Virus record (IMG/VR): IMGVR_UViG_2802429245_000015
Direction: 5' to 3' (one strand)
DNA: 35,147 bases
Origin: a virus
Taxonomy: Duplodnaviria; Heunggongvirae; Uroviricota; Caudoviricetes
Of this stretch, positions 1-34,437 are shown one piece after another. Under the pieces are notes generated by a model. The model saw only the letters and a program-made list of their open reading frames with translations. It was not told the DNA's origin and ran no database searches. The stretch's first letter is position 1. The number at the start of each line of letters is the position of its first letter. The position numbers and the translations under genes are program-made.

Positions 1-738
1 TCACTTCGGGTATGGCTGAATCCTGAATAGCTTGGTGTTTAGGCGCTTTTTTGCACGCTTATTCAGGAATCTGATGTAGCGATATTGATTAAATTTGTGT
101 ACCACGGCCCGCTCCTTATTAGCCCGCAAATACACGCCTCGTTGCCCTCCACGCTTAATCGCGTTCATCGTTATCTCGTGATACCACTCGCCGTCCAGCT
201 CGTAGAACGTGCTTTCATGGCTGCCAATAAAATCAAAATTCGACGCCTGATATACCACGCCTGCACGTCCGCAACGTTCGTCTGCAAAGGACTGAACCCA
301 CTCCACTGACGGATACAGTAACCTGATGGTTTTCAGCGCGTAGCTGATGGCCCGTGATTCAGAGTTGCGGGGCATGTCATCGTGTAACCACATGCGGTTC
401 AGTTCCATATAGCCCCGGTTATCCGTTTCAAGCACGACCCGGCGCCCTGAGTTGGGGTTAAGGGCATATCCCCACTGAAGAACACCAACCAGATCACGTC
501 CGCTGAATACGCCCAGATGCAGGTAGGAGTTATTCACAAAACGGCGGGAATAATGCTTTGTCTGAATGATTGTGCGGGCCAGCCAGCAGGATATGGTTTC
601 AACACGCAGCTCCTTTGAACCATAACCGACAATACGGCCTTCATACTCAATAACGCAGGGTTTTGTCAGAATGCGTGATTTCTTCTCTTTTCCCACAATA
701 CAGCTCCGTGGGATGCTCTTTGGCATTCGATATGACAA
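1..738 (-). CDS. mom: Mom-like DNA modification protein (anti-restriction adenine modification); true start probably downstream of 738
   Basis: 245-codon ORF with its stop at 1-3; begins inside the 3' end of com, as mom overlaps com in Mu; last gene of the late region. Assigned by synteny and size, not by a recognised motif. Confidence 0.6.
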
Positions 739-832
739 TGTAACGTTTACAGCGAGGACATTTAATTTCTATATGCTTAAAACCTCCTTTAAACAGTAAT
801 TTATTGCAGTTTTTACAGCGAACAGAGTCCAT
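647..832 (-). CDS. com: Com zinc-finger translational activator of mom
   Basis: ATG at 830-832 preceded by GGGGGA; product [61 protein letters not shown] closely matches remembered Mu Com (CxxC...CxxC finger, ...HCGKRE.ITHSD..RY). The track ORF 647-859 carries a 9-aa N-terminal extension. Confidence 0.8.
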
Positions 833-955
833 GATTCCCCCTGTGTAATAACCAGACATGAGCGCCCGGAGGGCTGGGGGTATTTAATCACAACCGATGC
901 AAACCGACGATCGATATGATGTTATCGATCGTCATAAACTATACAAACTGATTAT
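833..955 (-). promoter_or_regulatory. com-mom promoter region with a dyad carrying two GATC (Dam) sites
   Basis: Non-coding gap upstream of com. Perfect inverted repeat gacgatcgata (906-916) / tatcgatcgtc (923-933) with GATC at 909-912 and 927-930. Confidence 0.5.
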
Positions 956-1531
956 TTAATCACCGACAGTTAACGCTCTCACCTCGTCCAGTATGGACAG
1001 CTGGGAAAGCTGCTCCTTCATTTCACGCTGGCGCTGATAAATCTCGTCATTGCGATCGACCTGTGCCTGCGCCATTGCTGTCGCCAGTTCTTCCAGTTCC
1101 TGTATCGACAGTTTCACCTGTTGATTATCGGCGTCACCCCACGTCATAACGTCGCGTGCCATATCGGATTTTGATGCCATCACCACCGGATAAAGGCGAG
1201 CCAGTGAGTCGGGGCCAGCGTTCCAGGTATGACCGTTCCATTCGAACGTGAACGGCTGCGCTTCCTGCTCTGTTCGCCACGCCTCGATTTCCCGTTTTTT
1301 GGCATCTTTTGCCGCTGCGATAAGTTCCGGCGTGACGGTGAACGGGGCGATTTCGCCCCATTTGCCGCTCTGTAACTCTTCCCAGATGCGCTGGCCTGTC
1401 GGGGCGCTATCGTCCTGCATGGCGGTATACGGGACGAATTCCCTTTCACCTTCAAATAGCACCTCGCAGTCAACCGCACCATTTTCGAGATAATGCGCGT
1501 TTCTGATGCCTTTTACCGCTCTGATTTTCAT
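956..1531 (-). CDS. tail fibre assembly (chaperone) protein
   Basis: 191-aa ORF directly downstream of the large tail fibre gene; position and size typical of fibre chaperones. Confidence 0.55.
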   Translation of the reverse strand: MKIRAVKGIRNAHYLENGAVDCEVLFEGEREFVPYTAMQDDSAPTGQRIWEELQSGKWGEIAPFTVTPELIAAAKDAKKREIEAWRTEQEAQPFTFEWNGHTWNAGPDSLARLYPVVMASKSDMARDVMTWGDADNQQVKLSIQELEELATAMAQAQVDRNDEIYQRQREMKEQLSQLSILDEVRALTVGD

Positions 1532-1545
1532 GTTTTATTTCCTCG

Positions 1546-4500
1546 TTACTCGATGCGCACAAACAGGCAGATACGACCGCTTGTTCCGTAAGAGTCCCTG
1601 ACCCCGGATAACGCCATATAACGCCCCGGGAAAGTGTACCCTGTAGCTCCTGCACTCGGTGTGGAACCGTAGGAGCCAGCCCCCGCAGAAGATATTGTGC
1701 ACGAAAGATTAACTCCGCCCAGTTGTGACCCTGGCACCACATCACCCAGGCCAATTTTGATTTCTTTATCCCCGGAAGTTGTTCCGCGATAAACAGCAAG
1801 CACCGGAACACCCACTGCCGGGTATTTGAAATATGAGCCTGAGCCTGCTGTCCGGGACAGTAAGAACGCCAGCGAATCGCCGTCGTAAATGACAGGGCTT
1901 ACTGTTGCATTCCAGTTGTTTCCACTCCAGCGGTAAGTCAGGCGATGAATACTGTGCTCACCTTCGTAATACTGGTTAAAACACAGCAGCATTTTGAATT
2001 TACGCGTTGTGTCTGATTCATCGTTATCAAAGGGCGACCACATCACATCAATGATGCCGTTAAATTTTGTGGTGCCTGCCAGTAGTGTGGAAGAGTCCGC
2101 AATGCTGACCGCATAACGCCCCGGGGTGGCCTCTTTCAGCCATTCAGCAAAATCGGCCTGTCCGTCAAATGTCAGGGCTTCGGTGCTGGCAAATGCCTGA
2201 CCGAACCCATACATGCCGGACAGTGCCAGCCTGCCCGGTGTGCGGTCGCGGATATCGCTCTGGGGTTCCATCGTCGCAGCCGCTTTCAGTTCAAGCTCCG
2301 TGCGCATGGCTTCTGTCGTGTCCAGCGCCAGTAATGCGCGGGCTTTTTCTGACAGTTGCGCCAGTAAAATCCGGCCCTCTGCACTGAAATAAGGCAGCGT
2401 GTTTTCTTCCGGTGTTATCTGGCTGACAGCCGTTAACACGTCATTAAGCGGCTGTTTACCTGCCAGTGCTTTAGTGACCGTTGTCGCAAAGTTCGGGTCA
2501 TTGCCCAGCGCCGCTGCCAGCTCGTTCAGCGTGTCCAGGGTTTCCGGTGATGAGTCAACCAGCGCGGCGAGCAGTTTGCGGACAAACGCCGCATTGGCTA
2601 TCTCAGTGCCTGCTGCGTCATCCGGCGGGGTTGGTGTTGTCGGCGTTCCGGTCAGCGCCGGGCTTTTCAGTGGTGCGCGGGTTTCAATCAGCGCCCTGAG
2701 TGAAGCCTCATCAACCTTCAGGTTCTCCCACCCAACCAGATAACCACTTCCGGTGTAACGGTTGTAATAAATATGACCGTTAATACCGTAGAAAATAATG
2801 ACCTTATAGGCCTTATCATCGGTCGGGTAGTCATTGGGTGTTGGCCAGATAATTTCAACAACACCACTGAACAACACGCCCTGTATTACTGCTTTTGTAT
2901 CCGCATAAACGGCATAGCGTCCGGGTTTTGCCATTTTTACCCAGCGGAGAAAATCAGCTCCTGTTTTAAACTCGGTCCTGTCGATGCTGGAAAACGCTTT
3001 CCCAAACCCGAACATGCCGGGAATCGCCAGACGACCTTCGGTGCGGTCGTAAATATTCTCCTGCGCATCCTTCTGTGCTGCATTGCCAAGTTGTGGCGTC
3101 AGATTCGTCCAGGTGACCGGGGCGGAGATATTATCGCCACGAACGGTCATAAGAATCCGTCCGTCTTTTCCAAAAAACAGAACCAGCTTTGTTGCTGTCT
3201 GGCTGGTTTTGTCGCCCCAGCCATTATCCAGCCAGATAATTTCTGTTATCCCGGTGGTTTCTTCCGTTCGCGTGGAAAAGGTGTAATACCGTCCCGGGTG
3301 CAGGTTGTGAGCGGTTCTGGCTATATCCGCTATATTGCTGGCAATAATTGAACGTGCTCCGGCGTCCGTCATTCCGTAACCAAATGCACCAGGCAGCGCA
3401 ACGCGACCTTCCGTGCTGTCGTAAAGGTCTGTCTGTATGTCCCTTACCGCTGCGCTTTTCAGCTCAAGCTCATTACGCATGGCTTCCACTGTGGCCTGTG
3501 CCAGCAGTGACCGGGCTTTTTCTGACAGCGGAGACAGTGAAGCATTCCCGTCCTGATTAAAGCACAGAAGGTTATCGGCTCGCTCTTCCAGATTACTGAT
3601 AGCGGTTAACACGTCGCTGAGTGGTTGTTTACCCGCCAGCGCGTTCATGATTGTTGTCGCAAACTCCGGGTCATTGCCCAGCGCCGCTGCCAGCTCGTTC
3701 AGTGTGTCCAGGGCTTCCGGGGACGAGTCAACCAGCGCGGCGAGCAGTTTGCGGACAAATGCCGCGTTCGCCATCTCCAGCCCGGTCGCATCGTCCGGCG
3801 GGGTTGGTGTGGTTGGCGTACCTGTGAACGCCGGGCTGTCCAGTGGCGCTTTTGTTTTCGTCTCGTCCATGACGGTTTTGACGGCTTTTGGCGTGGCTGC
3901 CAGTTCTTCGCTGTCGTTGTCTGTATCACTACAGAGTTGCACCAGACCTTTTTCTGTCGTGGAAGCATTGCTTCCCTTCAGGTCATCAACTATCCGTTGT
4001 GCCTCGTCCCTGTGCTGTTTCGCGCTCTGCTCGCTTTTTGCTGCCGCTTCGGCGCTGGCTTTTGCCTCGCCGGTCAGCGTTGCAGCTTCACCGAGTTTAT
4101 CGACCGCTTTCTGGACTATCTTATCGGCATCTTTGACCGCCTGTTCTGCCCGGGCGGCATTCTGGTTTGTTTCGGAGGCCAGCTCTTCAGCTTTCTGGAC
4201 ATTACCCGCAATTTCTTCTGCATCCTGCCGTATTTCCCCTGCGAGGGTTTCTGTATCCTGGCGGGCCTGTTCAGCAGCGTCCGCATGCTCTCTGGCTTTT
4301 TCTGCGCTTTGCTGCGCCTGTTGCGCCAGTTCCTCGAATTTCTTCAGGGCTTCCGGGCGCAGGTCAATATCGGTTGCCCCCAGAAAATCATTCAGCGAAC
4401 CGTCTGTCGAATCTTCATAAACGCGAATGACACCGATTTCTGAAAGGCGCTGTGTGCTTTGTGTCAGGCGAACGCTGTACACACCCGGCAGAACGGGGAA

Positions 4501-4644
4501 GTCGTACTCCCCGCTCTGTGTGGTGACGTGGCTGAAAACACCTTTCAGAATCCCTGCGCGGTTGTGCAGGGAGGTCAGTGTAATGGTTGCGCCGCCCAGC
4601 GGTTCTCCCGTGGGCGTTTTAATCACACCTTTAAGCTGCGGCAT
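1546..4644 (-). CDS. side tail fibre protein (lambda Stf / P2 H-like), about 1032 aa
   Basis: ATG at 4642-4644 with GGAG 7 nt upstream (track ORF extends 14 codons further). N-terminus MPQLKGVIKTPTGEPLGGATITL...YSVRL...VYEDS resembles the Stf N-terminal anchor domain; Ala/Glu-rich coiled coil; motif TPKAVKTVMDETKTKAPLDSPAFTGTPTTPT...SPEALDTLNELAAALGNDP present twice; three about 110-aa DRTxGRLA.PG.FG.G...PGRY repeat domains. Confidence 0.8.
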   Translation of the reverse strand: MPQLKGVIKTPTGEPLGGATITLTSLHNRAGILKGVFSHVTTQSGEYDFPVLPGVYSVRLTQSTQRLSEIGVIRVYEDSTDGSLNDFLGATDIDLRPEALKKFEELAQQAQQSAEKAREHADAAEQARQDTETLAGEIRQDAEEIAGNVQKAEELASETNQNAARAEQAVKDADKIVQKAVDKLGEAATLTGEAKASAEAAAKSEQSAKQHRDEAQRIVDDLKGSNASTTEKGLVQLCSDTDNDSEELAATPKAVKTVMDETKTKAPLDSPAFTGTPTTPTPPDDATGLEMANAAFVRKLLAALVDSSPEALDTLNELAAALGNDPEFATTIMNALAGKQPLSDVLTAISNLEERADNLLCFNQDGNASLSPLSEKARSLLAQATVEAMRNELELKSAAVRDIQTDLYDSTEGRVALPGAFGYGMTDAGARSIIASNIADIARTAHNLHPGRYYTFSTRTEETTGITEIIWLDNGWGDKTSQTATKLVLFFGKDGRILMTVRGDNISAPVTWTNLTPQLGNAAQKDAQENIYDRTEGRLAIPGMFGFGKAFSSIDRTEFKTGADFLRWVKMAKPGRYAVYADTKAVIQGVLFSGVVEIIWPTPNDYPTDDKAYKVIIFYGINGHIYYNRYTGSGYLVGWENLKVDEASLRALIETRAPLKSPALTGTPTTPTPPDDAAGTEIANAAFVRKLLAALVDSSPETLDTLNELAAALGNDPNFATTVTKALAGKQPLNDVLTAVSQITPEENTLPYFSAEGRILLAQLSEKARALLALDTTEAMRTELELKAAATMEPQSDIRDRTPGRLALSGMYGFGQAFASTEALTFDGQADFAEWLKEATPGRYAVSIADSSTLLAGTTKFNGIIDVMWSPFDNDESDTTRKFKMLLCFNQYYEGEHSIHRLTYRWSGNNWNATVSPVIYDGDSLAFLLSRTAGSGSYFKYPAVGVPVLAVYRGTTSGDKEIKIGLGDVVPGSQLGGVNLSCTISSAGAGSYGSTPSAGATGYTFPGRYMALSGVRDSYGTSGRICLFVRIE
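2423..2677. repeat. internal direct repeat copy 1 inside the tail fibre gene
   Basis: Aligns with 3596-3850 at an offset of 1173 bp (391 codons, in frame). Core 2491-2590 vs 3664-3763 differs at about 5 positions by hand alignment. Confidence 0.85.
3596..3850. repeat. internal direct repeat copy 2 inside the tail fibre gene
   Basis: See copy 1; shared core gggtcattgcccagcgccgctgccagctcgttcag...tcaaccagcgcggcgagcagtttgcggacaaa. Confidence 0.85.
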
Positions 4645-5071
4645 CGGGACGCTCCGGCCAGTTGATGGAATTAAAGGAGGCTTCATCGGTAACGGTGCTT
4701 AAATCCAGCGCCTTCAGTGATTTGATATGCGCCATCCACCGCGCCAGACGGGCTTTATCGTCATCGCTGATGATTCCCAGTTCCAGCTCAGTTTTCCAGT
4801 CGGAGGTGATTTCCCTTGCTTCAGCCAGCAGGTGCTGGCGTTGCGTTTCCGCTTTCTGCTGCCAGTTAATTACGGGTTCTTTTAATACCGGATATCCGTT
4901 TTCGCCAGATACAATAATAAAACCGTCAGTCTGGCCCTGTAACAGTCTCTGATATTCTTCATCCGTGATTTCCTGTAAATCATTCGGCCACGTTCCCGCA
5001 TTTTCATAATCACCCTGAAGGCCAGAATGATAAAAACCGTTTGTTGATGGGCTGAAATAAATAGTCATCAT
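4631..5071 (-). CDS. tail fibre assembly protein (Mu U / lambda Tfa-like)
   Basis: 146 aa; N-terminus MMTIYFSPSTNGFY typical of Tfa chaperones; directly follows the short fibre gene; start overlaps its stop. Confidence 0.7.
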   Translation of the reverse strand: MMTIYFSPSTNGFYHSGLQGDYENAGTWPNDLQEITDEEYQRLLQGQTDGFIIVSGENGYPVLKEPVINWQQKAETQRQHLLAEAREITSDWKTELELGIISDDDKARLARWMAHIKSLKALDLSTVTDEASFNSINWPERPDAAA

Positions 5072-5958
5072 TAATACCCTATCGCTGTCCAGTACATAAC
5101 GCCGTTATTCTCGCTGTTGAATGTCGCACCTGCTGCTGATAACGATTTCAGGGAAATAGAGTAATCAGCACGGGTGTATGCGTTGGTAATAGTGATGCTG
5201 GTACATGCTGACGGAAATGATATCGGAAACGTCAGCCCGGCACTGGCATTGCCGAGATACCCCCACTGAATAATCACCCCGGTGGACGTGTCCTTAAACC
5301 AGCCATTACCGGCTTTTGACGCCGTGTTTTTTTGCTGGTAACGGTTGTCACCTTCAGTTTGTGACATTCCCGCAGAAATCGTGATATCGCGGCTGCCATC
5401 AAACAGCACATTGTTAATCCTGCGGGCCGTCTGAAGGCGGGTTGCCGTTCCGGCGTTGCCGCTGATGTTGTTGATGGTGATATCCGACATCAGAGCCATG
5501 CCGTTGACCTTGCGGGTATTCGGTACGGCATTACTGGCTTTATTTACCGTGTCACGTAATGAAAGCGCATTGATAATTTCATCGGCTGTGGTTTTCCCGA
5601 GAATACCGCGCACAAACGCACTGAGCGGCGTTAATGCCATTGTGTCCTTGCCGGTGAAATACGGGAACGTATTATTCTGACCGGTTAATCCGGCAATAGC
5701 TCCGGCTGAACCACTGTTCGTGATAAACAGCTTTTTCAGCGCCGTCATGATCTGGTCGGTGGTATTTTTATCCGGCTTGATATTTGCCTGCCGGAGAATT
5801 TCCAGCAGTTCAGACTGCACGATATTAAACCAGTCCGGCCCCGGATAGGTGGGTGGAATACCATTCCCGCCTTCGGTGAAATAAAGCGTTGTCTTGCTTA
5901 ATTCAGCCGCGACAGGTGGCATTACCGGTACACCCGTCGGATTATCCACATGAAACAT
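5071..5958 (-). CDS. tail fibre protein (Mu S-like, short, 295 aa)
   Basis: N-terminus MFHVDNPTGVPVMPP...TEGGNGIPPTYPGPDWFN resembles the conserved N-terminal domain of Mu/P2-type fibres; followed by a Tfa chaperone. Confidence 0.6.
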   Translation of the reverse strand: MFHVDNPTGVPVMPPVAAELSKTTLYFTEGGNGIPPTYPGPDWFNIVQSELLEILRQANIKPDKNTTDQIMTALKKLFITNSGSAGAIAGLTGQNNTFPYFTGKDTMALTPLSAFVRGILGKTTADEIINALSLRDTVNKASNAVPNTRKVNGMALMSDITINNISGNAGTATRLQTARRINNVLFDGSRDITISAGMSQTEGDNRYQQKNTASKAGNGWFKDTSTGVIIQWGYLGNASAGLTFPISFPSACTSITITNAYTRADYSISLKSLSAAGATFNSENNGVMYWTAIGY

Positions 5959-5961
5959 AAA

Positions 5962-6546
5962 TTATTCTCCGGTGTAATAATATTCATATTCCGTGCCCGC
6001 CAGCCGGTAATGCTTCAGCAGGCATTCCAGCTCGCGGGTGCGTTCGCTGATTAATGGCGTCATGACGTCATCAATACAGGTAAACCGTCCGGCATCTTTA
6101 TCCGGGACTTCCACTTTCAGCAGCCAGCGATACCGGGCCGGATGCAGCGGATACATACAGTCGCGCAGGCAGTGGTGCGGCAGAACAGCCGTCACCTTAA
6201 TGGTGAAGCCCAGCGCCGCCGCAGCGGCTTCAATCTGCCAGGTTGCCAGCCCGCCTTTGCGGCGGTATTTCTCCACCACGGCCCGGCGGCGGGCTTCCGT
6301 TGTGGTGGCGGCAATTCCGCATTCCGGCAGCGCCAGATATTGCTCCCACTCCGGCAGCAGCTGGAGCGTGGTTTCCGGTCGCATCTCCACATGCAGACGC
6401 GAGGCGTCGTATTCAACGCGGGTTAAACGCTCTGCAAGCGCCCTTAAAAAACGGTTTAAATCCGCGTCGTTATCACGCGGCCATGCCTTACCCCGTGGCA
6501 TGACCTGTTGTAGTGCGGTCAGCCATTCCGTCACGCTGTGAGCCAT
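5962..6546 (-). CDS. baseplate/tail protein (Mu gp48-like by position)
   Basis: 194-aa ORF between the J-like baseplate gene and the fibre gene. Confidence 0.45.
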   Translation of the reverse strand: MAHSVTEWLTALQQVMPRGKAWPRDNDADLNRFLRALAERLTRVEYDASRLHVEMRPETTLQLLPEWEQYLALPECGIAATTTEARRRAVVEKYRRKGGLATWQIEAAAAALGFTIKVTAVLPHHCLRDCMYPLHPARYRWLLKVEVPDKDAGRFTCIDDVMTPLISERTRELECLLKHYRLAGTEYEYYYTGE

Positions 6547-7640
6547 GTCACCTCCCCGATGGTGATAAGCTCATCCACATCACTTGTGGTGTCTTCCCCG
6601 ATGTTGAGGAAGTAATCCGTGATACCGGACGTCATACCGATGGCCGTGCGCAGCGAGGACACCGGCAGCATCTGACCGGGGGCCAGCGTTTTCTGTAATG
6701 CGGTCAGGTTTGCCCTGACGGCGTTCCTGTTCGCCTGGCTGTCCGGTGTCAGGCGGATGGACAGGTCGAGCTTCTTCAGCCTGACCTGCACTGGCCAGAC
6801 CTCGATGCCGCCCGGTTTACCCACCATCACGCCGGTGACCGGGTGTTTGTGGCAGAACAGATACTGCTCCATTGTCTTCAGGTCGTCCCGTGTGGGGATA
6901 ATGTCTTCACGGTCATCATAAAGCCATGCCAGCCCGACCGTGCCGGGGCCGTGCCACGCATCCCATGCCCACGCGCGGCTGACACCCGGCACTTCACGCG
7001 CCCAGATGACGTAATCATGCAGTGCACCGCCCACCGGGGGATTGCGGCGCACATACAGCAGACGGTCCAGCAGCTCTGCGATGGATTCGATGTCTGCGCC
7101 ACCGGTGATGCCACTTTCAGTCACCGCGCCTGTGCTGCCCGTTCCGGGTAGCGGGGATAACAGGGTCAGCACGGCACCGGCAGCAAGATTGCCCGCCACA
7201 CCGGCTTCTTCAGCCTGCACGATGACAGTGACCTCGCCGTCCTGTACCTCGCCGGATGTGAGTACCTGATACACCTGATTTGTGTCGGACTGCATCCGGG
7301 TTTCTGCCGGAATGGGGGACTGACTGGTGAAGGTCACCGGCCCGCTGGCAAAGGTGGCCTGCTTGCGGATAACCCCTTCATACGTTGCTGTTTTGATAAT
7401 GGTTTCATCATCAGACGCGGTGGACGGAATTATCTGGTCCTTAATCCAGCTCTGATGGTCGTATAAATCCCGGACCTGACTGCTGAATGACACGTTCAGT
7501 GCCTGCTCAACACTGACAGGCGGCAGCTTTTGCAGGCCGAGTTCATACGCAATATCTTTTTCGCCGTCGGCAATCAGTTTGCCCAGCGTGGGGATTTCAT
7601 ACGGCATTAATGGTGGCCTCCCATCGGCGGGTGATTTCAA
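6531..7640 (-). CDS. baseplate J-like protein (Mu gp47-like)
   Basis: 369 aa; size and position in the baseplate module. Confidence 0.6.
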   Translation of the reverse strand: MKSPADGRPPLMPYEIPTLGKLIADGEKDIAYELGLQKLPPVSVEQALNVSFSSQVRDLYDHQSWIKDQIIPSTASDDETIIKTATYEGVIRKQATFASGPVTFTSQSPIPAETRMQSDTNQVYQVLTSGEVQDGEVTVIVQAEEAGVAGNLAAGAVLTLLSPLPGTGSTGAVTESGITGGADIESIAELLDRLLYVRRNPPVGGALHDYVIWAREVPGVSRAWAWDAWHGPGTVGLAWLYDDREDIIPTRDDLKTMEQYLFCHKHPVTGVMVGKPGGIEVWPVQVRLKKLDLSIRLTPDSQANRNAVRANLTALQKTLAPGQMLPVSSLRTAIGMTSGITDYFLNIGEDTTSDVDELITIGEVTWLTA

Positions 7641-8049
7641 TTGTGAGCGTGGTTTTGTCCGGGCGGGTTAACACCACCTGAAAGGCAATACGGTCAGGGA
7701 CGATGATTCTGGCCGTGACGGTGGCGTTACGGGCGTAACCGGCCCGCAGCAGCGGTTGCATGGACAGCCGCGCGTAATCTTCCACACGCAGGCGGACATC
7801 TTCCGTCAGCTTTTCACGCTCAAGCAGCCACAGGCGGGAACCCCACGAAAAATCGCTGTACGTGTCGCCCGGCCAGCCGCGCGGGTCGCCAGAGCCGTCA
7901 GGAATGACATCATCGTCATCAGCACGGGCATCGGTGAAAAGGCAGATAAGAACCTGAGTGACCAGCCCCTCATCCAGTGAGAGGCCGTTATGGGTGACGG
8001 TGATGTCACCCCGTGAGAGCATGTTATTCCAGCGGATTCCTGTCGTCAT
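7597..8049 (-). CDS. baseplate protein (Mu gp46-like)
   Basis: 150 aa between the V-like and J-like genes. Confidence 0.5.
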   Translation of the reverse strand: MTTGIRWNNMLSRGDITVTHNGLSLDEGLVTQVLICLFTDARADDDDVIPDGSGDPRGWPGDTYSDFSWGSRLWLLEREKLTEDVRLRVEDYARLSMQPLLRAGYARNATVTARIIVPDRIAFQVVLTRPDKTTLTIEITRRWEATINAV

Positions 8050-8582
8050 ACGGGCGGTGATGTATTCTCATTGTCGCCGTCCTTATGAATATGTTCGCTG
8101 AAAGATTTGCCGTTGATGGTGATGTCTTCAGTAAAATCACAGGGGCCGACGAATTTCATTTGTCCGCTGATGATATTCAGCAATTCGTCGGCAGTGAGAT
8201 TTACCGCTTTCCCTGAAAAGTCTAATTGTTCTCCTGTGATTTCAATGATGCCGCCTTCCTTCAGGGTGATGTGTGATTTGCCGTCCTGGTGATACAGCCG
8301 GACGTCGCCGGGGGACAGCCCTTTCGGGCGACATCGCTTATCCTCCACCGCGATGGCAACCAGCCCGTCACGCCGCCCGCTAACGGCCAGCACTATGGCT
8401 TCAGAACCTTCCGGCGGCACGGATGTAAAACCGTAGTTCTGGAAGCGTTCCACGTCGTCGTCGGTGGCATCTGCCAGCGTCTGGATTTGCAGGTTCTGCC
8501 GCTCCAGACTGTCAGACACCATGCGGACAATGGCACGGTCAACCATCAACCGCAGACGGCGGGCAATGGCGTTTAATCCCAT
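8046..8582 (-). CDS. baseplate assembly/spike protein V-like (Mu gp45-like)
   Basis: 178 aa; position and size. Confidence 0.55.
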   Translation of the reverse strand: MGLNAIARRLRLMVDRAIVRMVSDSLERQNLQIQTLADATDDDVERFQNYGFTSVPPEGSEAIVLAVSGRRDGLVAIAVEDKRCRPKGLSPGDVRLYHQDGKSHITLKEGGIIEITGEQLDFSGKAVNLTADELLNIISGQMKFVGPCDFTEDITINGKSFSEHIHKDGDNENTSPPV

Positions 8583-27373: not shown

Positions 27374-27921
27374 ACAGCAATTCTCCCGCTGTTTCGTGCG
27401 CGGGCATATGCACTGGTCAGTGCATCATAGCCGCGCAGTTCCCGCCCGGATGGGCTTACAGGTAAAGGCACACCATGTCGGGCAAAGGCTTCCCGGATGC
27501 AGCGCATATGCCACTGTTTGAGCGTTTCGAGCACAACATGCAACGATTCCCCGTGACACCAGGCCAGCGTGGAAACACCCTGACCACCATTACGTCTGGC
27601 CGTCAGGCGTTCAACGTATTTGTCCAGCGCGGCGTCGCTGATATCGGAGACGAAACCATCAAGAAACATCTGCTGCCAGATTTTATAAATCTTCTCGCGC
27701 GGTGTGACATGCCCCTTAAAGCGACGGCGGGGATGTTTTTTCTGCTTCTTAAAACCGCGCTCTTTCATGGCATCGAGCACCTGTTCCAGTTGTGCGACAG
27801 TCAGTTCGCGGCAACTGGTCTTGCCTGTGCACTGCACCAGAAAGGCGCGGTAAGTGTCATCGTCGAGTTGTAGATCACGACGGGCAACATGGATTAATTT
27901 AATCAGGGATGTGCGACTCAT
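27370..27921 (-). CDS. gemA: GemA-like protein (Mu gp16 family)
   Basis: 183 aa immediately upstream of mor with overlapping stop/start; N-terminus MSRTSLIKLIHVARRDLQLDDDTYRAFL fits the gp16 family pattern; GGAGG RBS. Confidence 0.55.
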   Translation of the reverse strand: MSRTSLIKLIHVARRDLQLDDDTYRAFLVQCTGKTSCRELTVAQLEQVLDAMKERGFKKQKKHPRRRFKGHVTPREKIYKIWQQMFLDGFVSDISDAALDKYVERLTARRNGGQGVSTLAWCHGESLHVVLETLKQWHMRCIREAFARHGVPLPVSPSGRELRGYDALTSAYARARNSGRIAV

Positions 27922-27993
27922 AATCGTACCTCCGAAAAGGGGCGGTGCTGCAACACCGCCCGTACTATTGATAACACTGAAAATGGAGACGAC

Positions 27994-28233
27994 ATGTCTG
28001 TAGAAAACAATGCGTCAATCACTTTTAATCTGGTTTCGGGTCTGATGTTGAAACTTGTCCAGAACAAGACTCTGACAAAGGGGGAAGCTCAATCCATACT
28101 GGCCTCAGCAATTCTTGAAAACATTCAGAACCGGGAGGGCGTTACGGATCTTGATCTTCATGCGCTTCGTCTGAAACTTGCTATGTCTGATTTCAGCGTT
28201 GAAAAAGAGCCTCCACAAGACGCTCAGGCGTAA
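27994..28233 (+). CDS. hypothetical 79-aa protein on the opposite strand to the early operon
   Basis: ATG at 27994 with GGAG 5 nt upstream; fills a 270-bp gap with no minus-strand ORF longer than 18 codons; AT-richer than flanks; 3' end overlaps the convergent 93-aa gene by 41 bp. Confidence 0.4.
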   Translation: MSVENNASITFNLVSGLMLKLVQNKTLTKGEAQSILASAILENIQNREGVTDLDLHALRLKLAMSDFSVEKEPPQDAQA

Positions 28234-28474
28234 TCACGTCTGATGGTTTAAGCCCCAGCCTGCGGCGAATAAATTCGTCGCGGGCTTTTTTGTTATCCAG
28301 TGAAACTTCATCTGCAATAATATTAATTTCATGCTGGATAATATTCACAGTAACACGCGCAGACAGCCCTTCACGGATAGCAATATCAATAATATCGCGC
28401 ATACGCTCAAGCATTTTAGCCTTCACCAGTTCTTCATCCAGATCTTTGGGGATAAATGTGATTTCATCGTTCAT
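28193..28474 (-). CDS. hypothetical 93-aa protein
   Basis: ORF in the AT-richer segment; charged, helical. Confidence 0.45.
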   Translation of the reverse strand: MNDEITFIPKDLDEELVKAKMLERMRDIIDIAIREGLSARVTVNIIQHEINIIADEVSLDNKKARDEFIRRRLGLKPSDVITPERLVEALFQR

Positions 28475-28794
28475 TTTGCAGTTCTCAGAATAAATTCAGG
28501 ATAAAAATTCATACTCATTTGCTGTAATACATTCAACGCGGCAACCGCAGCCTGCTTATCATTCCCTTTGGCTATTCCTTTTAATTCTCTGATAATCCAT
28601 GCCGGGCTAAGCGCCTCAGCCATTTCCAGTCGGGCGTCGTTAAAAAGCAATAGCTCTGCATCATCATGTTTTTCGTCTTCCAGATAAGATACGAGCTTAT
28701 CCGCTGATTCCCTGCTCATTCCGCCAGCCATCAATGTGGCCCGAAACTCCGCATGCAGGGTTACTTCTTGTGTTATCATTTCATTCACCTTCAC
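28471..28794 (-). CDS. hypothetical protein (about 102-107 aa; ATG at 28777-28779 or GTG at 28792-28794)
   Basis: ORF; its ATG lies 2 nt after the stop of the upstream zinc-ribbon ORF. Confidence 0.45.
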   Translation of the reverse strand: MKVNEMITQEVTLHAEFRATLMAGGMSRESADKLVSYLEDEKHDDAELLLFNDARLEMAEALSPAWIIRELKGIAKGNDKQAAVAALNVLQQMSMNFYPEFILRTAK

Positions 28795-28930
28795 AATTCA
28801 CGCATGCCGTGTCATCGCCCATATCGCAGTGGTTGCATTTCTGCTCGCCACAATAAGGGCACTCTTTCAGATATTCAGGGACTTCATTACCGCAGGCCGG
28901 GCATTCCTGCTTTTCGTTTACGTTATTCAT
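28781..28930 (-). CDS. small double zinc-ribbon protein (49 aa, four CxxC pairs); absent from the ORF track
   Basis: Hand translation: MNNVNEKQECPACGNEVPEYLKECPYCGEQKCNHCDMGDDTACVNCEGE; GAGGAGG 9 nt upstream of the ATG at 28928-28930. Confidence 0.5.
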   Translation of the reverse strand: MNNVNEKQECPACGNEVPEYLKECPYCGEQKCNHCDMGDDTACVNCEGE

Positions 28931-29105
28931 TCCTTAATACCTCCTCGCAATAAAAGATTTCACTGGGATAACGTTTTTGTATGCGCTCCATCACCTGCAT
29001 ACATGACTGCTCTGTGGGCCAGATTTTTTCCGTTACGGGTATGGCATCACAGGCATCATTCCCGCAGGTGCCAACCAGCAGGACAAAGCCAATTGACTTA
29101 ATCAC
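28923..29105 (-). CDS. small Cys-rich, probably exported protein (about 60 aa from GTG 29103-29105)
   Basis: GTG preceded by GGAG at 7-nt spacing; MIKSIGFVLLVGTCGNDACD... has a signal-peptide-like N-terminus with a non-canonical lipobox; four further Cys. The track lists a longer 78-aa version (28923-29159). Confidence 0.4.
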   Translation of the reverse strand: MIKSIGFVLLVGTCGNDACDAIPVTEKIWPTEQSCMQVMERIQKRYPSEIFYCEEVLRNE

Positions 29106-29382
29106 TGCTCGTCTCCATCTGTTCCAGGCGCTGCGCTTCGCGCATACACAGCTGCGCAATCATCATCTGGCGGGTAATGCCTGCACGAATAAACGAAGCT
29201 GCGCGACGGAGATTTTTTGCATTCGCCTGTTGAATCAATGCAGGTACTGATGCCAGACATTCGGCGCTGTCTTTAATCAGCGTTGCTGCTGTTATTTCTG
29301 TTTTTTGTCGTTCACTCTTTGTGGTCATAAACATCACCATTTCAGATTCAGGCGCGAGCAATCCCCTGACGCATCGCGCCAT
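29098..29382 (-). CDS. hypothetical protein (up to 94 aa; start uncertain)
   Basis: First ORF downstream of gam. Confidence 0.45.
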   Translation of the reverse strand: MARCVRGLLAPESEMVMFMTTKSERQKTEITAATLIKDSAECLASVPALIQQANAKNLRRAASFIRAGITRQMMIAQLCMREAQRLEQMETSSD

Positions 29383-29422
29383 AATTAAAAGAAAGTGAAT
29401 TAATTAAATATTCGTGGTGATA

Positions 29423-29947
29423 TTAAATACCGGCTTCCTGTTCAAACGGAATAATAGAAAAATCTTCAATGCCCGATTTAACTGTAATTCCGGCAACACC
29501 TGCGACCGCTTTCGGTTCCAGTAAAATCGCTTCCTTGTTGATTTCCTGTTTCGTGCGAATAAAGCGTTGCAGGCCAAGACGCTCCAGCGTTTCCATCACC
29601 GCATCCACACCGCGAATACTTACCGATGGTGGGCGCTGACGCCATGACACATCGCCGGTTACCAGGTTCGCCGTCTTCACCTTGCCGCCGTTCGTCAGTT
29701 CGTCACGGTTCGCTTCACACCACCCCTGAACGCCTTTTGAAAGGGTTTCAATACTGGTTTTAAGGGGCGCAATCTGTGAGGCGTATTTCTCCGTAATCTC
29801 AGCGATAGCGTCATTCATTTCCGTTTCAAGTCGTGCTGCTTCGCGTTGCAGGTCACCAATCCGGCGGATATCACATACCACGGCATCGCGGGATTGCGGA
29901 ACATAAGCCGCTGCGGCGTTCTTGATTCGTTTTGCTGGTTTAGCCAT
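29423..29947 (-). CDS. gam: Gam host-nuclease inhibitor (Ku-like DNA-end binding)
   Basis: 174 aa; MAKPAKRIKNAAAAYVPQSRDAVVCDIRRIGDLQREAARLETEMNDAIAEITEKYA...GITVKSGIEDFSIIPFEQEAGI matches remembered Mu Gam along its length. Confidence 0.85.
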   Translation of the reverse strand: MAKPAKRIKNAAAAYVPQSRDAVVCDIRRIGDLQREAARLETEMNDAIAEITEKYASQIAPLKTSIETLSKGVQGWCEANRDELTNGGKVKTANLVTGDVSWRQRPPSVSIRGVDAVMETLERLGLQRFIRTKQEINKEAILLEPKAVAGVAGITVKSGIEDFSIIPFEQEAGI

Positions 29948-29967
29948 ATAAATAAAGCTCCTGTTAA

Positions 29968-30267
29968 TTAATATTCGCTGTATACAATGCTGGATACAGC
30001 ACGATTGCTTAATTCCATCTTTTGGGCAATGACATGAATAGCCAGCCCGTCTTTATAAAGTTCTCGACACAAATATTTGTCGTGCTCACTGATTCGATAT
30101 GCACACAACGATATTCCGTGCCTTCTGGCGTGTGCCCGGAGGGCGGTTGTGGCAACGTTCAGTTTTTTCGCCATTTCCTCGACGGTCATTTTCCCGACAC
30201 TGGCTTCGATAAATTCCCGGTCTTCGCGTGACCAGCGTTTACGCTTACACATCATTCCGGTCACCAC
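29968..30267 (-). CDS. small helix-turn-helix DNA-binding protein (likely ATG start at 30253-30255, about 95 aa)
   Basis: Two HTH-like segments (MTVEEMAKKLNVATTALRAHARRHGI and LAIHVIAQKMELSNRAVSSIV); basic N-terminus. Confidence 0.5.
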   Translation of the reverse strand: MVTGMMCKRKRWSREDREFIEASVGKMTVEEMAKKLNVATTALRAHARRHGISLCAYRISEHDKYLCRELYKDGLAIHVIAQKMELSNRAVSSIVYSEY

Positions 30268-30687
30268 TCAGTACAACAGGGGTTCGCGCAGTGATGCCGG
30301 AATATGCCGCAGCGATAACTGAACCGCTTTCAGGGCAAGGGAAGAATACGTCCCCTGCGTCCAGCCTTTCGCCATTTGCCGGTAATCGCGCCAGATGTTC
30401 TGCCACTGCTCCCGTGCGTCCGGGTCTGACGCGCTGATGTATTCTCGGCCCATGACGTATTCCCATAAATCCACATTGAAGGCATTGCCAAACGTAATGG
30501 CGCGGAATACCGCCTCCCCGCAATAACGCGCACAAATGCTGTAATGGTCGAATGCAATCAGGTAAGTCTTTTCGCCATACCCCTCAACTTCGCGCGCGCA
30601 AATAAATTCGCGCAAGTCTCCGCCATTGTTATTACGCATTTTGATTCGAATTAATGCCTGGATTTCGTTTCTGATTTTGGCGTTCAT
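30268..30687 (-). CDS. hypothetical 139-aa early protein
   Basis: ORF with AGGAA RBS 8 nt upstream of the ATG at 30685-30687. Confidence 0.45.
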   Translation of the reverse strand: MNAKIRNEIQALIRIKMRNNNGGDLREFICAREVEGYGEKTYLIAFDHYSICARYCGEAVFRAITFGNAFNVDLWEYVMGREYISASDPDAREQWQNIWRDYRQMAKGWTQGTYSSLALKAVQLSLRHIPASLREPLLY

Positions 30688-30701
30688 TGTCAGCGTTCCT
30701 T

Positions 30702-30965
30702 TCAGTGACGTGTTCCTTCAACTGTCGCTTCTGTGACACTGCCACCCGAAATGACGCCATCATTTTTCAGTATTTCAATGGCCTCATGGGCTGACTCGCG
30801 AACGATATCCCGGCTTTTTTCCAGAACCAGTAACGCTATCGCACCAGCAAGCGTGTACTCATCACCATCCAGTTCTGCGCTGTGGTCCACGTTAACATTG
30901 GTGCGTAAATGCTGCCCTTTAACTTCAGATGTCACATTTTTGATTTCGATAATGACTTTTGCCAT
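30702..30965 (-). CDS. hypothetical 87-aa acidic early protein
   Basis: ATG at 30963-30965 with GAGGA 8 nt upstream (track ORF extends 18 codons further without an RBS). Confidence 0.45.
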   Translation of the reverse strand: MAKVIIEIKNVTSEVKGQHLRTNVNVDHSAELDGDEYTLAGAIALLVLEKSRDIVRESAHEAIEILKNDGVISGGSVTEATVEGTRH

Positions 30966-30997
30966 TTTGTTATTCCTCACAAATAAATAAGCCGTTA

Positions 30998-31225
30998 TTA
31001 ACGCCAGATAATCTGGCAACCATTAAGGCGTGCCGTCCATACTGAACGGGCAACCCCTGATTTATGCTCCATAATCCTGACAGCGTTTCTGACCAGCTCC
31101 GGTGGCGGGCAGGTGATTTCAAGTACCGGGCGGGCCACGCCCAGCCAGGATTCGTTGACGTGGCTGCCGCGCTCCTGTAACCAGGTCTTTACTTCCGTCG
31201 CCATTTTGATATTACGAGACATCAT
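30998..31225 (-). CDS. small early protein immediately after B (Kil-like by position only)
   Basis: 75-aa ORF whose start overlaps the B stop; Mu kil occupies this position. Confidence 0.3.
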
Positions 31226-32181
31226 GATTCAGCATCCCCTTGCACACCCAGCAGCATCGAAACATCAACGTCCTGGTCTAACTCTTTGTAAGCCTCACGC
31301 AGATAATCCTCATTAACACGTTCACCTTTACCGAAGGCATTCATAACAGCAAGGCGCAGCGTTTGATTTATAATGCGGAGCGCACCAGGCGTTTGTGCAA
31401 TCTGCTGTAATAATTCCCGTTCATTTTTCCCGGTAATCTGCCAGGCATCCGCAATTGCGTTTACATCGTCTTCTTTGGTTTTATTAATTGCTGTGCGCTT
31501 TGCAATACGGGAAAACAGACGGGCAAACTCAATTGTTCTGTCGCCATTAGCGGTCATATTTGAATAAACACGGTGATTCCCCATCAGAACCAGACCAATA
31601 CAGGCGGACTCCTGTAACAGACGGAGCTCTTCCAGCGCTTCGGTGTCAAGGTGATCAGCTTCGTCAACAATGACCAGTCCCTGCGTCCCTTTCAGGCGGC
31701 GACGCAGATTACGGGAAAGCGGCCCTTTGCGACATGGTGCATTATTCATTCCCAACTCTTCGGCAAGTTCAGTCAGACATTCCAGCGTACTGGCACGGGA
31801 TGGCGCGATGGTGATCATCCAGACATTATTATTAGTGCGACAAAATTCACGGGCTGCTTCGCTTTTACCCACTCCTGGATTGCCACAGATAACAGCAATG
31901 GTTCCGGTCAGATTAGCAAAACGCATACTTGTCCAGATTTGACGGGCTGTTGCAGTTTCCACAAAACGCGGGGGTTCCGGCAGTTCTTCTGCGCGGTGAT
32001 AGTTTTCCAGCCAGCGTTCCAGTGTGCGCCCGACTGATTCCATGTTGCCGTTATATTTATCATTCACAAAACCACTGACTGTGCTCAGGGCCACGCCTGA
32101 TTCACTGGCGATGCGTGTCAGCGTGGTTTCTCCATTGTCTACAAGCGTGCGCAGTCCTGCGCGAATATCGGAAATATTCAT
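31222..32181 (-). CDS. B: MuB-type AAA+ ATPase / target DNA activator
   Basis: 319 aa; [14 protein letters not shown]... N-terminus, Walker [15 protein letters not shown], ...[14 protein letters not shown]...[18 protein letters not shown]..., matching remembered MuB over its full length. Confidence 0.9.
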
Positions 32182-32219
32182 CTAAATAACCTCGTAATTA
32201 AATTTTGTTTAAACGTTAA

Positions 32220-34208: not shown

Positions 34209-34215
34209 AGCGCAC

Positions 34216-34437
34216 CTAGTATCGAGACGGCCAAATATCTTGCGGTGTCATTCCCAGTGCATCTGCAATGATTTTCTCCGCTTTCGGATATCTCTTATCC
34301 AAAGCATTTTTTAATGTTGAAGACGAAAGATGATTAGATCTTCCCAATTCAGCTAGTGACATATTGCGTTTTCGTAGCTCTGCAACGATGTCAGCTCTGT
34401 GCCAATCTTGGCGGTTAGTTCTTTTATTCATATGCAT
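34216..34437 (-). CDS. ner: Ner-like DNA-binding early regulator (Ner/Nlp family)
   Basis: 73 aa; [25 protein letters not shown]...[32 protein letters not shown] carries the Ner/Nlp signature; 7 bp upstream of A. Confidence 0.8.

What the first reader, a model, noticed from the sequence alone, without database searches (positions are those of the whole stretch)
956..5958. Two tandem tail-fibre plus chaperone modules replace the Gin-invertible G segment
Mu switches host range by Gin-mediated inversion of the G segment carrying alternative S/U genes. Here a short S-like fibre with its chaperone (4631-5958) is followed on the same strand by a long Stf-like fibre with its chaperone (956-4644). 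No invertase gene and no inverted fibre genes are present; com follows within 100 bp. Both fibres may be expressed at once.
Basis: partly seen in the sequence, partly recalled or inferred. Interest (0 to 1): 0.45.

Follow-up and report, generated by a model that had tools for sequence, protein, structure and literature searches.

The report
Mu-like prophage with two fixed fibres
This transposable Mu-type prophage of E. coli has no invertible host-range switch; it carries two permanently encoded, differently anchored tail-fibre sets, a design shared by a whole lineage of E. coli prophages and built from known parts.

Summary
On the minus strand lie an S-like short fibre (5071-5958), a Tfa chaperone (4631-5071), a 1032-aa Stf-like fibre (1546-4644) and a DUF4376 chaperone (956-1531). 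Then come com and mom. There is no Gin/Pin homologue, no gix-like site, no meaningful inverted repeat and no inverted fibre gene.

The interpretation needs two corrections.

First, this is not a local swap of the G segment. The early region (about 27.4-35.1 kb) and com-mom are 88-90% identical in DNA to Mu, D108 and SfMu. The whole late region between them belongs to another Mu-like lineage (gp47 38%, gp48 31% identical to Mu).

Second, the two fibres are not equivalent alternatives. Fibre 1 has the Mu S N-terminus, which in Mu docks on gp48. Fibre 2 has the collar-type N-domain of lambda Stf and of the neck "collar spike" of Vibrio myophage XM1, so it must bind elsewhere, possibly at the neck.

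All 14 loci of this lineage examined keep both anchors (dN/dS 0.09 and 0.13), vary the distal parts, and have no invertase. The genes are translationally coupled, so co-expression is likely.

This is a new member of known kinds and of modest interest.

The parts
5962..6546 (-). gp48-like baseplate wedge protein (YmfQ family). It is the presumed docking partner of fibre 1.
   Evidence: Pfam Phage_Mu_Gp48 5.9e-32. 31% identical to Mu gp48. In Mu the S N-terminus docks on gp48 loop 133-155 (PMC11915804).
5071..5958 (-). Fibre 1: a short S-type baseplate fibre of 295 aa. It has a constant N-terminal anchor and a variable distal part with a Gp53-like / R-pyocin-fibre-like C-terminus.
   Evidence: Residues 1-81 match Mu S 1-81 in PDB 5yvq/9ki1 (E 2e-19), and residues 211-258 match R1/R2 pyocin fibres. 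Gp53-like_C 1.6e-13. The first 100 aa are 93-100% identical in 14/14 lineage loci, with dN/dS 0.087 over the 13 unframeshifted loci.
4631..5071 (-). Tfa: tail-fibre assembly chaperone of fibre 1 (146 aa). Its start overlaps the fibre 1 stop.
   Evidence: Caudo_TAP 2.3e-24. The C-terminus is 34% identical to Mu U'. The N-terminal part is of at least three types among relatives (146-147, 177 and 182 aa), while the last residues ...INWPERPDAAA* recur with little change.
1546..4644 (-). Fibre 2: a long Stf-like fibre of 1032 aa. It has an N-terminal collar-type anchor (about aa 1-95, nt 4360-4644) and an Ala/Glu/Gln-rich coiled coil (about aa 96-245). The shaft has two Phage_fiber_2/helical segments and three knob-like repeats of about 120 aa. 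The tip ends ...PGRYMALSG...CLFVRIE.
   Evidence: phage_tail_N 1.5e-25. Residues 3-183 match XM1 gp40 collar spike 4-184 (E 4e-11), and residues 3-90 match Ur-lambda StfN 4-92 (E 1e-9). Nucleotides 2252-4164 are 88.7% identical to the Rac-SA53 tail fibre, but the N-domain is only 40-46% identical to lambdoid StfN. The internal duplication is shown.
956..1531 (-). DUF4376 protein (191 aa), the presumed chaperone of fibre 2. It starts 14 nt after the fibre 2 stop and has its own ribosome-binding site.
   Evidence: DUF4376 4.1e-17 and PHROG 1141 6e-87. Family members have been shown to be fibre chaperones. In nine lineage loci (counting the window) it sits directly after a StfN fibre, eight of which end in the PG.Y.AL.G...LF.R motif.
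860..955 (-). Spacer carrying the mom regulatory region. It is where similarity to the Mu right end fades out.
   Evidence: The alignment with Mu shows conserved ACGACGATCGA and ATCGATCG blocks. In Mu these lie in the last roughly 35 nt of gin and just after it.
1..859 (-). The com-mom module of Mu type (com 647-832/859, mom 1-726/738).
   Evidence: Mom is 96.7% and Com 72.6% identical to Mu in protein. Nucleotides 1-822 are 89% identical to Mu/SfMu/D108.

Best explanation
The window is a nearly complete, chimeric, transposable Mu-like prophage of E. coli type.

Chimeric structure. Its transposition/early region and its com-mom right end are of the Mu/D108 type. All late genes come from a different Mu-like myovirus lineage.

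The host-recognition module is fixed, not switchable.
- Fibre 1 (S-type N-terminus) is folded with its Tfa. It docks on the gp48 wedge protein of the baseplate, as Mu S does.
- Fibre 2 carries a collar-type N-domain of the lambda Stf / XM1 gp40 class. It is folded with a DUF4376 chaperone and mounts on a second site.

Where fibre 2 sits. This is inferred. The site is most likely a six-fold ring at the head-tail neck, as in myophage XM1. Less likely is a position at the baseplate end.

Expression and diversification. All four genes are translationally coupled to the baseplate genes in the late operon. Every virion should therefore carry both fibre sets at once. Host range in this lineage is varied by recombinational exchange of the distal fibre cassettes, partly with side-fibre genes of lambdoid prophages. 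It is not varied by DNA inversion.

Shown: gene content, anchor types, absence of inversion machinery, conservation across the lineage, and mosaic boundaries.
Inferred: simultaneous display, attachment sites, and chaperone dependence.
For: Mu-like identity. MuA DDE_2 1e-135, MuB, Mu-type repressor, Portal_Mu and gp44-48 are all present. The sheath, tube, gp36 and major head protein match Mu cryo-EM chains.

Chimera. Window 27422-35147 is 88-90% identical in DNA to D108/SfMu/Mu, and 1-822 is 89%. gp47 and gp48 are only 38% and 31% identical to Mu in protein. The nearest isolated phages reach only 49-55%.

No switch.

Distinct anchors. Fibre 1 residues 1-81 match Mu S 1-81, and Mu S docks on gp48. 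Fibre 2 residues 3-183 match XM1 gp40, and residues 3-90 match lambda StfN. StfN forms a 12-mer collar on the lambda tail tube (PMC12617516). The gp40 N-domain binds the XM1 neck (PMC10457771).

Both anchors are functional. 14/14 lineage loci, from differently located insertions, keep both. Fibre 1 is 93% identical or better and StfN 90% or better over the first 100-110 aa. dN/dS is 0.087 and 0.13. The distal parts differ, with fibre 2 at 468-1037 aa.

The anchor is lineage-specific. StfN is only 40-46% identical to lambdoid StfN, while the shaft is 88.7% identical in DNA to a Rac-type fibre.

Coupling. Gaps and overlaps of 14 nt or less with ribosome-binding sites. There are no terminator-like sites at the gene junctions; the only two minus-strand sites are weak and lie inside the fibre 2 ORF.
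Against: - No virion of this lineage has been imaged or analysed by proteomics, so display of fibre 2 and its position are untested.
- The neck proteins of the window show no detectable sequence similarity to the XM1 neck proteins. The neck location therefore rests on fold precedent and on the sheath covering the tube in myoviruses.
- A clade (L010, L016, L017) with fibre 2 cut to 156 aa sits at different insertion sites. The distal part of fibre 2 is thus dispensable for spread.
- Only 14 of about 50 lineage loci were inspected.
Confidence: 0.7

Rival explanations
1. Fibre 2 is a passenger. On this reading a lambdoid stf gene with its chaperone was captured at the end of the late operon. It is expressed but not assembled on the Mu-like virion, or it serves only as a recombination reservoir. 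The phage would effectively have one fibre.
For: The shaft is 88.7% identical in DNA to the tail fibre of phage Rac-SA53. A clade with a truncated 156-aa StfN still occurs at different chromosomal sites. The Mu structure shows only one fibre-docking site per wedge.
Against: The N-domain is not the lambdoid one (40-46% identity). It is kept at 90% identity or better in 14/14 loci with dN/dS 0.13, including the truncated clade. The 14-nt overlap with Tfa is conserved even where the Tfa type changes. The ORF is intact at 468-1037 aa in 10 of 14 loci.
Confidence: 0.13
2. The tandem modules would be the unswitched equivalent of S/U and S'/U': two alternative fibres of the same class that replaced the G segment and gin by a local event in a Mu genome. 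They would share or compete for the same baseplate site.
For: The position is the same: the modules lie between gp48 and com-mom, where Mu has S-U-U'-S'-gin. Part of the mom operator, which in Mu overlaps the 3' end of gin, is retained.
Against: Fibre 2 lacks the S-type N-terminus and has a collar-type one. The whole late region, not only the G region, is foreign to Mu. The two related phages read have no inverted fibre cassette.
Confidence: 0.07
3. There is a hidden switch. Fibre choice would be controlled by some other programmed mechanism, such as a host invertase acting in trans, a shufflon, a diversity-generating retroelement, or recombination between the internal direct repeats.
For: The long fibre has an in-frame 254-nt direct repeat (83% identical, 1173 nt apart). 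This could give length variants by homologous recombination. Relatives differ in fibre length.
Against: There are no inverted repeats and no gix-like sites. No serine invertase was found anywhere in the window, and the stray ORFs across the fibre region have no Pfam match. I did not scan for tyrosine recombinases or reverse transcriptases outside that region. Repeat-mediated deletion would be ordinary recombination, not a programmed switch.
Confidence: 0.03

Closest known systems
Phage Mu / D108 / SfMu tail-fibre region (S-U-U'-S'-gin, the G segment)
   Same: The gene neighbourhood is gp47-gp48-fibre-Tfa ... com-mom. Fibre 1 has an S-type N-terminus. Tfa is of the Caudo_TAP family. com-mom and the early region are 88-90% identical in DNA.
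   Different: There is no gin, no gix and no inverted S'/U'. Fibre 1 is short (295 versus 504 aa). The late genes are only 31-38% identical in protein. A second fibre of another anchor class takes the place of U'-S'-gin.
Ur-lambda side tail fibre Stf with Tfa (and the StfR-type fibres of Rac-like prophages)
   Same: Fibre 2 has the PF08400 N-domain, followed by a coiled coil and then the shaft. The shaft DNA is 88.7% identical to a Rac-type fibre. Like lambda Stf, it is an accessory fibre whose distal part can be lost without loss of viability.
   Different: It sits in a contractile-tailed Mu-like phage, where the tube ring used by lambda StfN is covered by the sheath. The N-domain is only about 40% identical. 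The chaperone is DUF4376, not lambda Tfa.
Vibrio myophage XM1 gp40 collar spike protein (PDB 7KJK)
   Same: Both are myoviruses with baseplate receptor-binding proteins plus a second trimeric appendage. In both, the N-terminal domain and coiled coil of that appendage align (residues 3-183 versus 4-184, E 4e-11).
   Different: The distal part of XM1 gp40 is a tailspike, and its gene is not next to the baseplate genes. No sequence similarity was detected between the neck proteins of the window and those of XM1.
e14 prophage P segment (ymfQ-stfP-tfaP-tfaE-stfE'-pinE)
   Same: A gp48-type wedge protein is followed by an S-type fibre and a Tfa.
   Different: e14 has the Pin invertase and an inverted cassette. 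It is only 27-31% identical in protein and has no StfN-type fibre.
DUF4376 fibre chaperones (Alteromonas V22 gp27, A5 gp9, the Campylobacter CJIE1 gene downstream of the H-fibre)
   Same: A C-terminal DUF4376 domain in a gene lying directly downstream of its fibre.
   Different: The partner fibre is different, and nothing has been tested experimentally here.

Membership tests
Gin/Pin/Cin/Hin-type invertible fibre segment | A serine DNA invertase gene next to the fibre genes. | tested here: not met
   tblastn of Mu Gin and e14 PinE found no hit below E = 2.4 in the window. It found none at E <= 1e-3 in the window or 13 related loci.
Gin/Pin/Cin/Hin-type invertible fibre segment | A pair of inverted crossover sites (26-34 bp gix-like) flanking the variable fibre parts. 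| tested here: not met
   The Mu gix has no match within 8 mismatches, and the generic pattern none within 4. The best inverted repeats are 26 nt or less at 77%.
Gin/Pin/Cin/Hin-type invertible fibre segment | A second fibre C-terminal cassette and chaperone on the opposite strand. | tested here: not met
   All fibre and chaperone similarity is on the minus strand. Plus-strand ORFs have no family match.
Mu S-type baseplate fibre | An N-terminus homologous to Mu S residues 1-81, the part that docks on gp48. | tested here: met
   Fibre 1 residues 1-81 match 5yvq/9ki1 S residues 1-81 at E 2.3e-19. It is 33% identical over 200 aa.
Mu S-type baseplate fibre | Encoded directly after a gp48-family wedge protein and followed by a Caudo_TAP chaperone. 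| tested here: met
Mu S-type baseplate fibre | Physical docking on the gp48 fibre-docking loop. | not testable with these tools
   This needs a virion structure or a multimer prediction.
Lambda Stf / XM1 gp40 collar-anchored fibre (PF08400) | A roughly 95-aa N-terminal collar (Ig-like / CarboxypepD_reg-like) domain. | tested here: met
   PF08400 1.5e-25. The domain aligns over its whole length with 9e7m StfN and 7kjk gp40.
Lambda Stf / XM1 gp40 collar-anchored fibre (PF08400) | A trimeric coiled coil directly after the N-domain. | tested here: inconclusive
   Residues 100-183 align with the XM1 gp40 helical region, and the sequence is Ala/Glu/Gln-rich. No coiled-coil prediction or structure was made.
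Lambda Stf / XM1 gp40 collar-anchored fibre (PF08400) | The N-domains form a ring around a six-fold tube or neck ring of the virion. | not testable with these tools
   Precedents are in PMC12617516 and PMC10457771. The neck proteins of the window are not detectably similar to those of XM1.
DUF4376 tail-fibre chaperone | A C-terminal DUF4376 domain in a gene immediately downstream of the fibre. | tested here: met
   PF14301 4.1e-17 over residues 73-177. The gap after the fibre stop is 14 nt.
DUF4376 tail-fibre chaperone | Required for folding or activity of the upstream fibre. | not testable with these tools
   Only co-occurrence is available. In nine lineage loci (counting the window) the gene follows a StfN fibre, and eight of those fibres end in a shared motif.
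Mu-like transposable phage | MuA DDE transposase, MuB, a Mu-type repressor, a Mu portal/head and the gp44-48 baseplate. | tested here: met
   Relatives sit at unrelated chromosomal sites and interrupt host genes.

The most novel reading that the evidence does not exclude
The PF08400 collar domain may be a portable adaptor that works across tail morphotypes. In this Mu-like myovirus it would mount long fibres on the head-tail neck, as in XM1, rather than on the tail tip, as in lambda. Because the adaptor is lineage-specific while the shaft and tip are shared, contractile-tailed transposable phages and lambdoid siphoviruses in E. coli would draw on one common pool of side-fibre receptor-binding cassettes.
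Probability: 0.35. Interest if true: 0.5.

Novelty: new member of a known kind. Interest (0 to 1): 0.3.

Why it matters
The finding shows that Mu-type transposable phages of E. coli are not all built like Mu. A lineage present in about 1% of complete E. coli genomes combines Mu/D108 transposition and com-mom ends with a foreign late region. It covers host range with two constitutive, differently anchored fibre sets and with cassette exchange, not with Gin inversion.

Two practical consequences follow. Such prophages should not be annotated or engineered on the Mu G-segment model. Their second fibre also offers a conserved anchor onto which lambdoid side-fibre tips can evidently be grafted.

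The open structural question is where a collar-type fibre sits on a Mu-like contractile tail. It could be answered with one cryo-EM data set.

Tried and rejected
- The genome-contig scan with the gp47-like protein returned only two loci, both cut at contig ends, so it told nothing about the fibre module.
- The search for homologous proteins with the StfN domain returned only short, near-identical E. coli/Shigella fragments. This gave no diversity for a structure alignment and no distant contexts. I therefore made no AlphaFold model and relied on direct sequence matches to solved structures.
- I looked for sequence similarity between the neck proteins of the window and those of XM1 to support a neck location. 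I found none.
- I considered e14 as a close relative that carries an invertase. It is only 27-31% identical, and its fibre is S-type, not StfN-type.
- I first took the PGAP 'pseudogene / missing C-terminus' flags on fibre 2 in relatives as decay. Reading the ORFs through showed them intact up to the DUF4376 gene.
- A self-BLAST of the long fibre reported only the diagonal. The duplication is documented by the repeat finder and by the motif listing.
- There are no tRNA genes and no Rfam family matches in the window.
- Literature searches for a Mu-like phage with a side or collar fibre, or for PF08400 in such phages, found no description.


Full report
WHAT IS THERE

The window is a nearly complete Mu-like prophage read in reverse. 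mom ends at base 1, and a Mu-type repressor ends at base 35147.

Pfam identifies the following:
- MuA (DDE_2 1e-135, 32220-34208) and MuB (31222-32181).
- A repressor with the Mu DNA-binding domain.
- Mu portal, gp44/gp45/gp46, gp47-like baseplate J (6531-7640) and gp48-like (5962-6546).

The sheath, tube, gp36 and major head protein match chains of Mu-type cryo-EM structures.

Downstream of gp48, all on the minus strand, lie:
- a 295-aa fibre (5071-5958);
- a 146-aa Caudo_TAP chaperone (4631-5071);
- a 1032-aa fibre with PF08400 and Phage_fiber_2 (1546-4644);
- a 191-aa DUF4376 protein (956-1531);
- a spacer of 96-123 nt, then com and mom.

The junctions are tight:
- 3 nt between gp48 and fibre 1, with a GGAG ribosome-binding site;
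- a TAATG overlap between fibre 1 and Tfa;
- a 14-nt overlap between Tfa and fibre 2, with GGAG;
- 14 nt between fibre 2 and DUF4376, with GAGG.

No terminator-like site lies at a gene junction. The two weak minus-strand sites are inside the fibre 2 ORF.

TEST OF THE REFUTING CONDITION

Invertase. Mu Gin and e14 PinE were fetched from their records. Neither finds anything in six frames of the whole window. The best Gin hit has E = 2.4, and PinE has none at E <= 1.

Crossover sites. The 34-bp Mu gix was recovered from the two G-segment boundaries. It has no match within 8 mismatches, and a generic gix/hix pattern has none within 4.

Inverted repeats. Those in 1-8000 are 26 nt or less at 77% complementarity, and they pair unrelated genes.

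Opposite strand. ORFs on the opposite strand have no family match.

There is thus no inversion system.

WHAT THE TWO FIBRES ARE

Fibre 1. Residues 1-81 match residues 1-81 of Mu S in solved structures (E 2e-19). It is 33% identical to S over 200 residues. In the Mu virion the S N-terminus is anchored to the fibre-docking loop of gp48, with six trimers per baseplate (PMC11915804). The C-terminal part of fibre 1 resembles Gp53-like and R-pyocin fibre tips.

Fibre 2 is a different class.
- Residues 3-90 align with the N-domain of the Ur-lambda side fibre (9e7m, E 1e-9).
- Residues 3-183 align with the N-domain plus coiled coil of XM1 gp40, the 'collar spike' (7kjk, E 4e-11).
- In Ur-lambda, twelve StfN domains from four trimers form a collar round the tail tube at the gpV/gpM junction (PMC12617516).
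- In the myovirus XM1, six gp40 trimers bind the neck through this domain, contacting the head-completion and tail-terminator proteins (PMC10457771).

Fibre 2 therefore cannot use the gp48 loop in the way S does. It is an additional appendage set, not a second allele of S.

In a contractile tail the tube is covered by the sheath. The neck is therefore the precedent-supported site. This is an inference: the neck proteins here show no detectable sequence similarity to those of XM1.

The DUF4376 protein. It belongs to a family whose members, encoded just downstream of fibres, are required chaperones in Alteromonas V22 and Campylobacter CJIE1. The Alteromonas A5 homologue is annotated the same way.

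A LINEAGE FEATURE, NOT A ONE-OFF

Frequency. The gp47-gp48 DNA occurs at 93-99% identity in 49 of 5426 complete E. coli genomes.

Sample. I read 13 of these loci plus the window. The prophages sit at unrelated sites, near pduF, dhaM, gspE, flhA, fliH, yehQ, mhpR, vgrG or inside other prophages. They often truncate a host gene, as expected of active transposable phages.

Shared layout. All 14 have gp48, then fibre 1, then Tfa, then the StfN gene. The 14-nt Tfa overlap was read in the 11 loci examined for it. None has a Gin or Pin homologue.

Conserved anchors. The first 100-110 residues are 93% or more (fibre 1) and 90% or more (fibre 2) identical. dN/dS is 0.087 and 0.13 over 13 distinct sequences, with mean dS 0.24-0.29.

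Divergent distal parts:
- Fibre 1 is 260-367 aa, with at least three Tfa types.
- Fibre 2 is 468-1037 aa and intact in 10 loci.
- In one locus (STEC719) fibre 2 is a 301-aa StfN protein followed by a 100-aa protein and an SGNH/GDSL hydrolase.
- In one clade it is a 156-aa stub.
- Several PGAP 'pseudogene' flags on fibre 2 are artefacts. The ORFs read through to just before the DUF4376 gene and end in a shared motif, PG.Y.AL.G...LF.R.

Mobility of the stub clade. Its members lie at different insertion sites, so the distal part of fibre 2 is dispensable for spread. The same is true of lambda Stf in laboratory lambda.

Source of the distal parts. The N-domain is only 40-46% identical to lambdoid StfN domains. 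The shaft (nt 2252-4164) is 88.7% identical in DNA to the fibre of phage Rac-SA53. So the anchor is lineage-specific and the distal part is exchanged with lambdoid prophages.

WHY 'REPLACES THE G SEGMENT' IS ONLY POSITIONALLY TRUE

- Window 27422-35147 (repressor, A, B and the other early genes) is 88-90% identical in DNA to D108, SfMu and Mu.
- Window 1-822 (mom and most of com) is 89% identical, and Mom protein is 96.7% identical.
- Everything between is foreign to Mu. gp47 is 38% and gp48 31% identical in protein. The best isolated-phage matches are Klebsiella Kp4866-3 (55%), Vibrio Mu-likes (about 50%) and a Shewanella Mu-like (49%).
- G+C content follows the same pattern: 41-53% in the early region, 54-61% in the late genes, and 48% at com-mom.
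- The phage is therefore a chimera with Mu/D108-type ends around a heterologous late region.
- Kp4866-3 has a Collar-domain fibre, a Tfa and a 585-aa unknown protein. Vibrio martha 12B12 has a single GDSL fibre. Neither has an inverted cassette.
- At the right junction, recognisable similarity to Mu fades inside the mom regulatory region. Two of Mu's three GATC blocks are kept in the spacer 860-955. In Mu these blocks overlap the last codons of gin.

MECHANISM PROPOSED

The late operon reads through baseplate, fibre 1, Tfa, fibre 2 and DUF4376.
- Fibre 1 trimers, folded with Tfa, occupy the six gp48 sites.
- Fibre 2 trimers, folded with the DUF4376 chaperone, form a collar by their N-domains on a second six-fold site.
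- Particles carry both. Fibre 2 probably acts as an accessory first-contact adhesin, and fibre 1 as the baseplate-triggering fibre.
- Diversification is by recombination distal to the conserved anchors.

Shown: gene content, anchors, conservation, absence of a switch, and mosaicism.
Inferred: co-display, sites, and roles.

COMPARISON AND VERDICT

Every part belongs to a known family, and a myovirus with baseplate receptor-binding proteins plus collar-anchored spikes already exists (XM1). I found no paper describing a Mu-like phage with a PF08400 fibre. The lineage is in RefSeq with automatic annotation only.

It is a new member of known kinds. It is ordinary as regards the missing G segment: the two related Mu-like phages read here have none, and I know of invertible fibre segments among Mu-like phages only in the Mu/D108/SfMu group. 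That last point rests on my own knowledge. It is mildly interesting for the cross-morphotype use of the Stf collar anchor. Interest 0.3.

Noticed in passing
window 1-822 and 27422-35147 versus 860-27400: The prophage is a chimera. Both ends (com-mom, and the repressor/A/B/early region) are 88-90% identical in DNA to Mu/D108/SfMu. The repressor end matches D108/SfMu rather than Mu. The whole late region is from another Mu-like lineage and has a higher G+C content.
   Followed up: partly
window 860-955: The spacer before com keeps two of the three GATC blocks of the Mu mom operator (ACGACGATCGA and ATCGATCG). In Mu these overlap the 3' end of gin. The third block (AGATCGA in Mu) reads GCATCGG here.
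   Followed up: partly
window 2423-2676 and 3596-3849: A 254-nt direct repeat (83% identical) lies inside the long fibre gene, spaced 1173 nt apart (391 codons, in frame). The protein has two Phage_fiber_2/helical segments and three knob-like repeats of about 120 aa, starting near aa 409, 533 and 800. Relatives with 750-865 aa look like single-unit versions.
   Followed up: partly
L001 4522-6774, L006 3685-5970, L008 3373-5970: RefSeq/PGAP flags the second fibre as an incomplete pseudogene in these E. coli genomes. The ORFs are nevertheless intact (750, 761 and 865 aa) and end just before the DUF4376 gene. The flags are annotation artefacts.
   Followed up: yes
L002 (E. coli STEC719) 3957-6683: This variant has a different second appendage: a 301-aa StfN protein, a 100-aa protein, a 456-aa SGNH/GDSL hydrolase (Lipase_GDSL_2 1e-17) and a 50-aa remnant of the DUF4376 gene. 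It may be an esterase-type receptor-modifying tip.
   Followed up: partly
L010, L016, L017 (about half of the 49 genomes, the 93% identity group), locus coordinates about 4167-8077: In this clade gp48 is extended to 324 aa, an extra 352-aa protein without a Pfam match precedes fibre 1, and StfN is cut to a 156-aa ORF with no DUF4376 gene. The copies lie at different chromosomal sites.
   Followed up: partly
C-termini of StfN fibres in the window, L001, L006-L009, L011 and L015: These fibres share an extreme C-terminal motif, PG(T/R/S)Y.AL.G ... LF(V/I/M)R... It is seen only where a DUF4376 gene follows, and is absent from L013, which has no DUF4376 gene. L014 has a DUF4376 gene but a divergent ending. 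This suggests a chaperone recognition element.
   Followed up: no
last residues of the Tfa proteins: window 4631-4665 and the equivalent stretch in all relatives: The end of Tfa (...INWPERPDAAA*, with two substitutions in one clade) is kept across at least three otherwise different Tfa types. It overlaps the ribosome-binding site and start codon of the StfN gene, so the conservation may be imposed by the overlap.
   Followed up: no
L018 (Klebsiella phage Kp4866-3) 4046-5803: The nearest isolated relative also has a large gene (585 aa) after its fibre and Tfa. It has no Pfam match and no StfN domain.
   Followed up: no
whole window: There are no tRNA genes and no Rfam family at gathering threshold.
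   Followed up: yes
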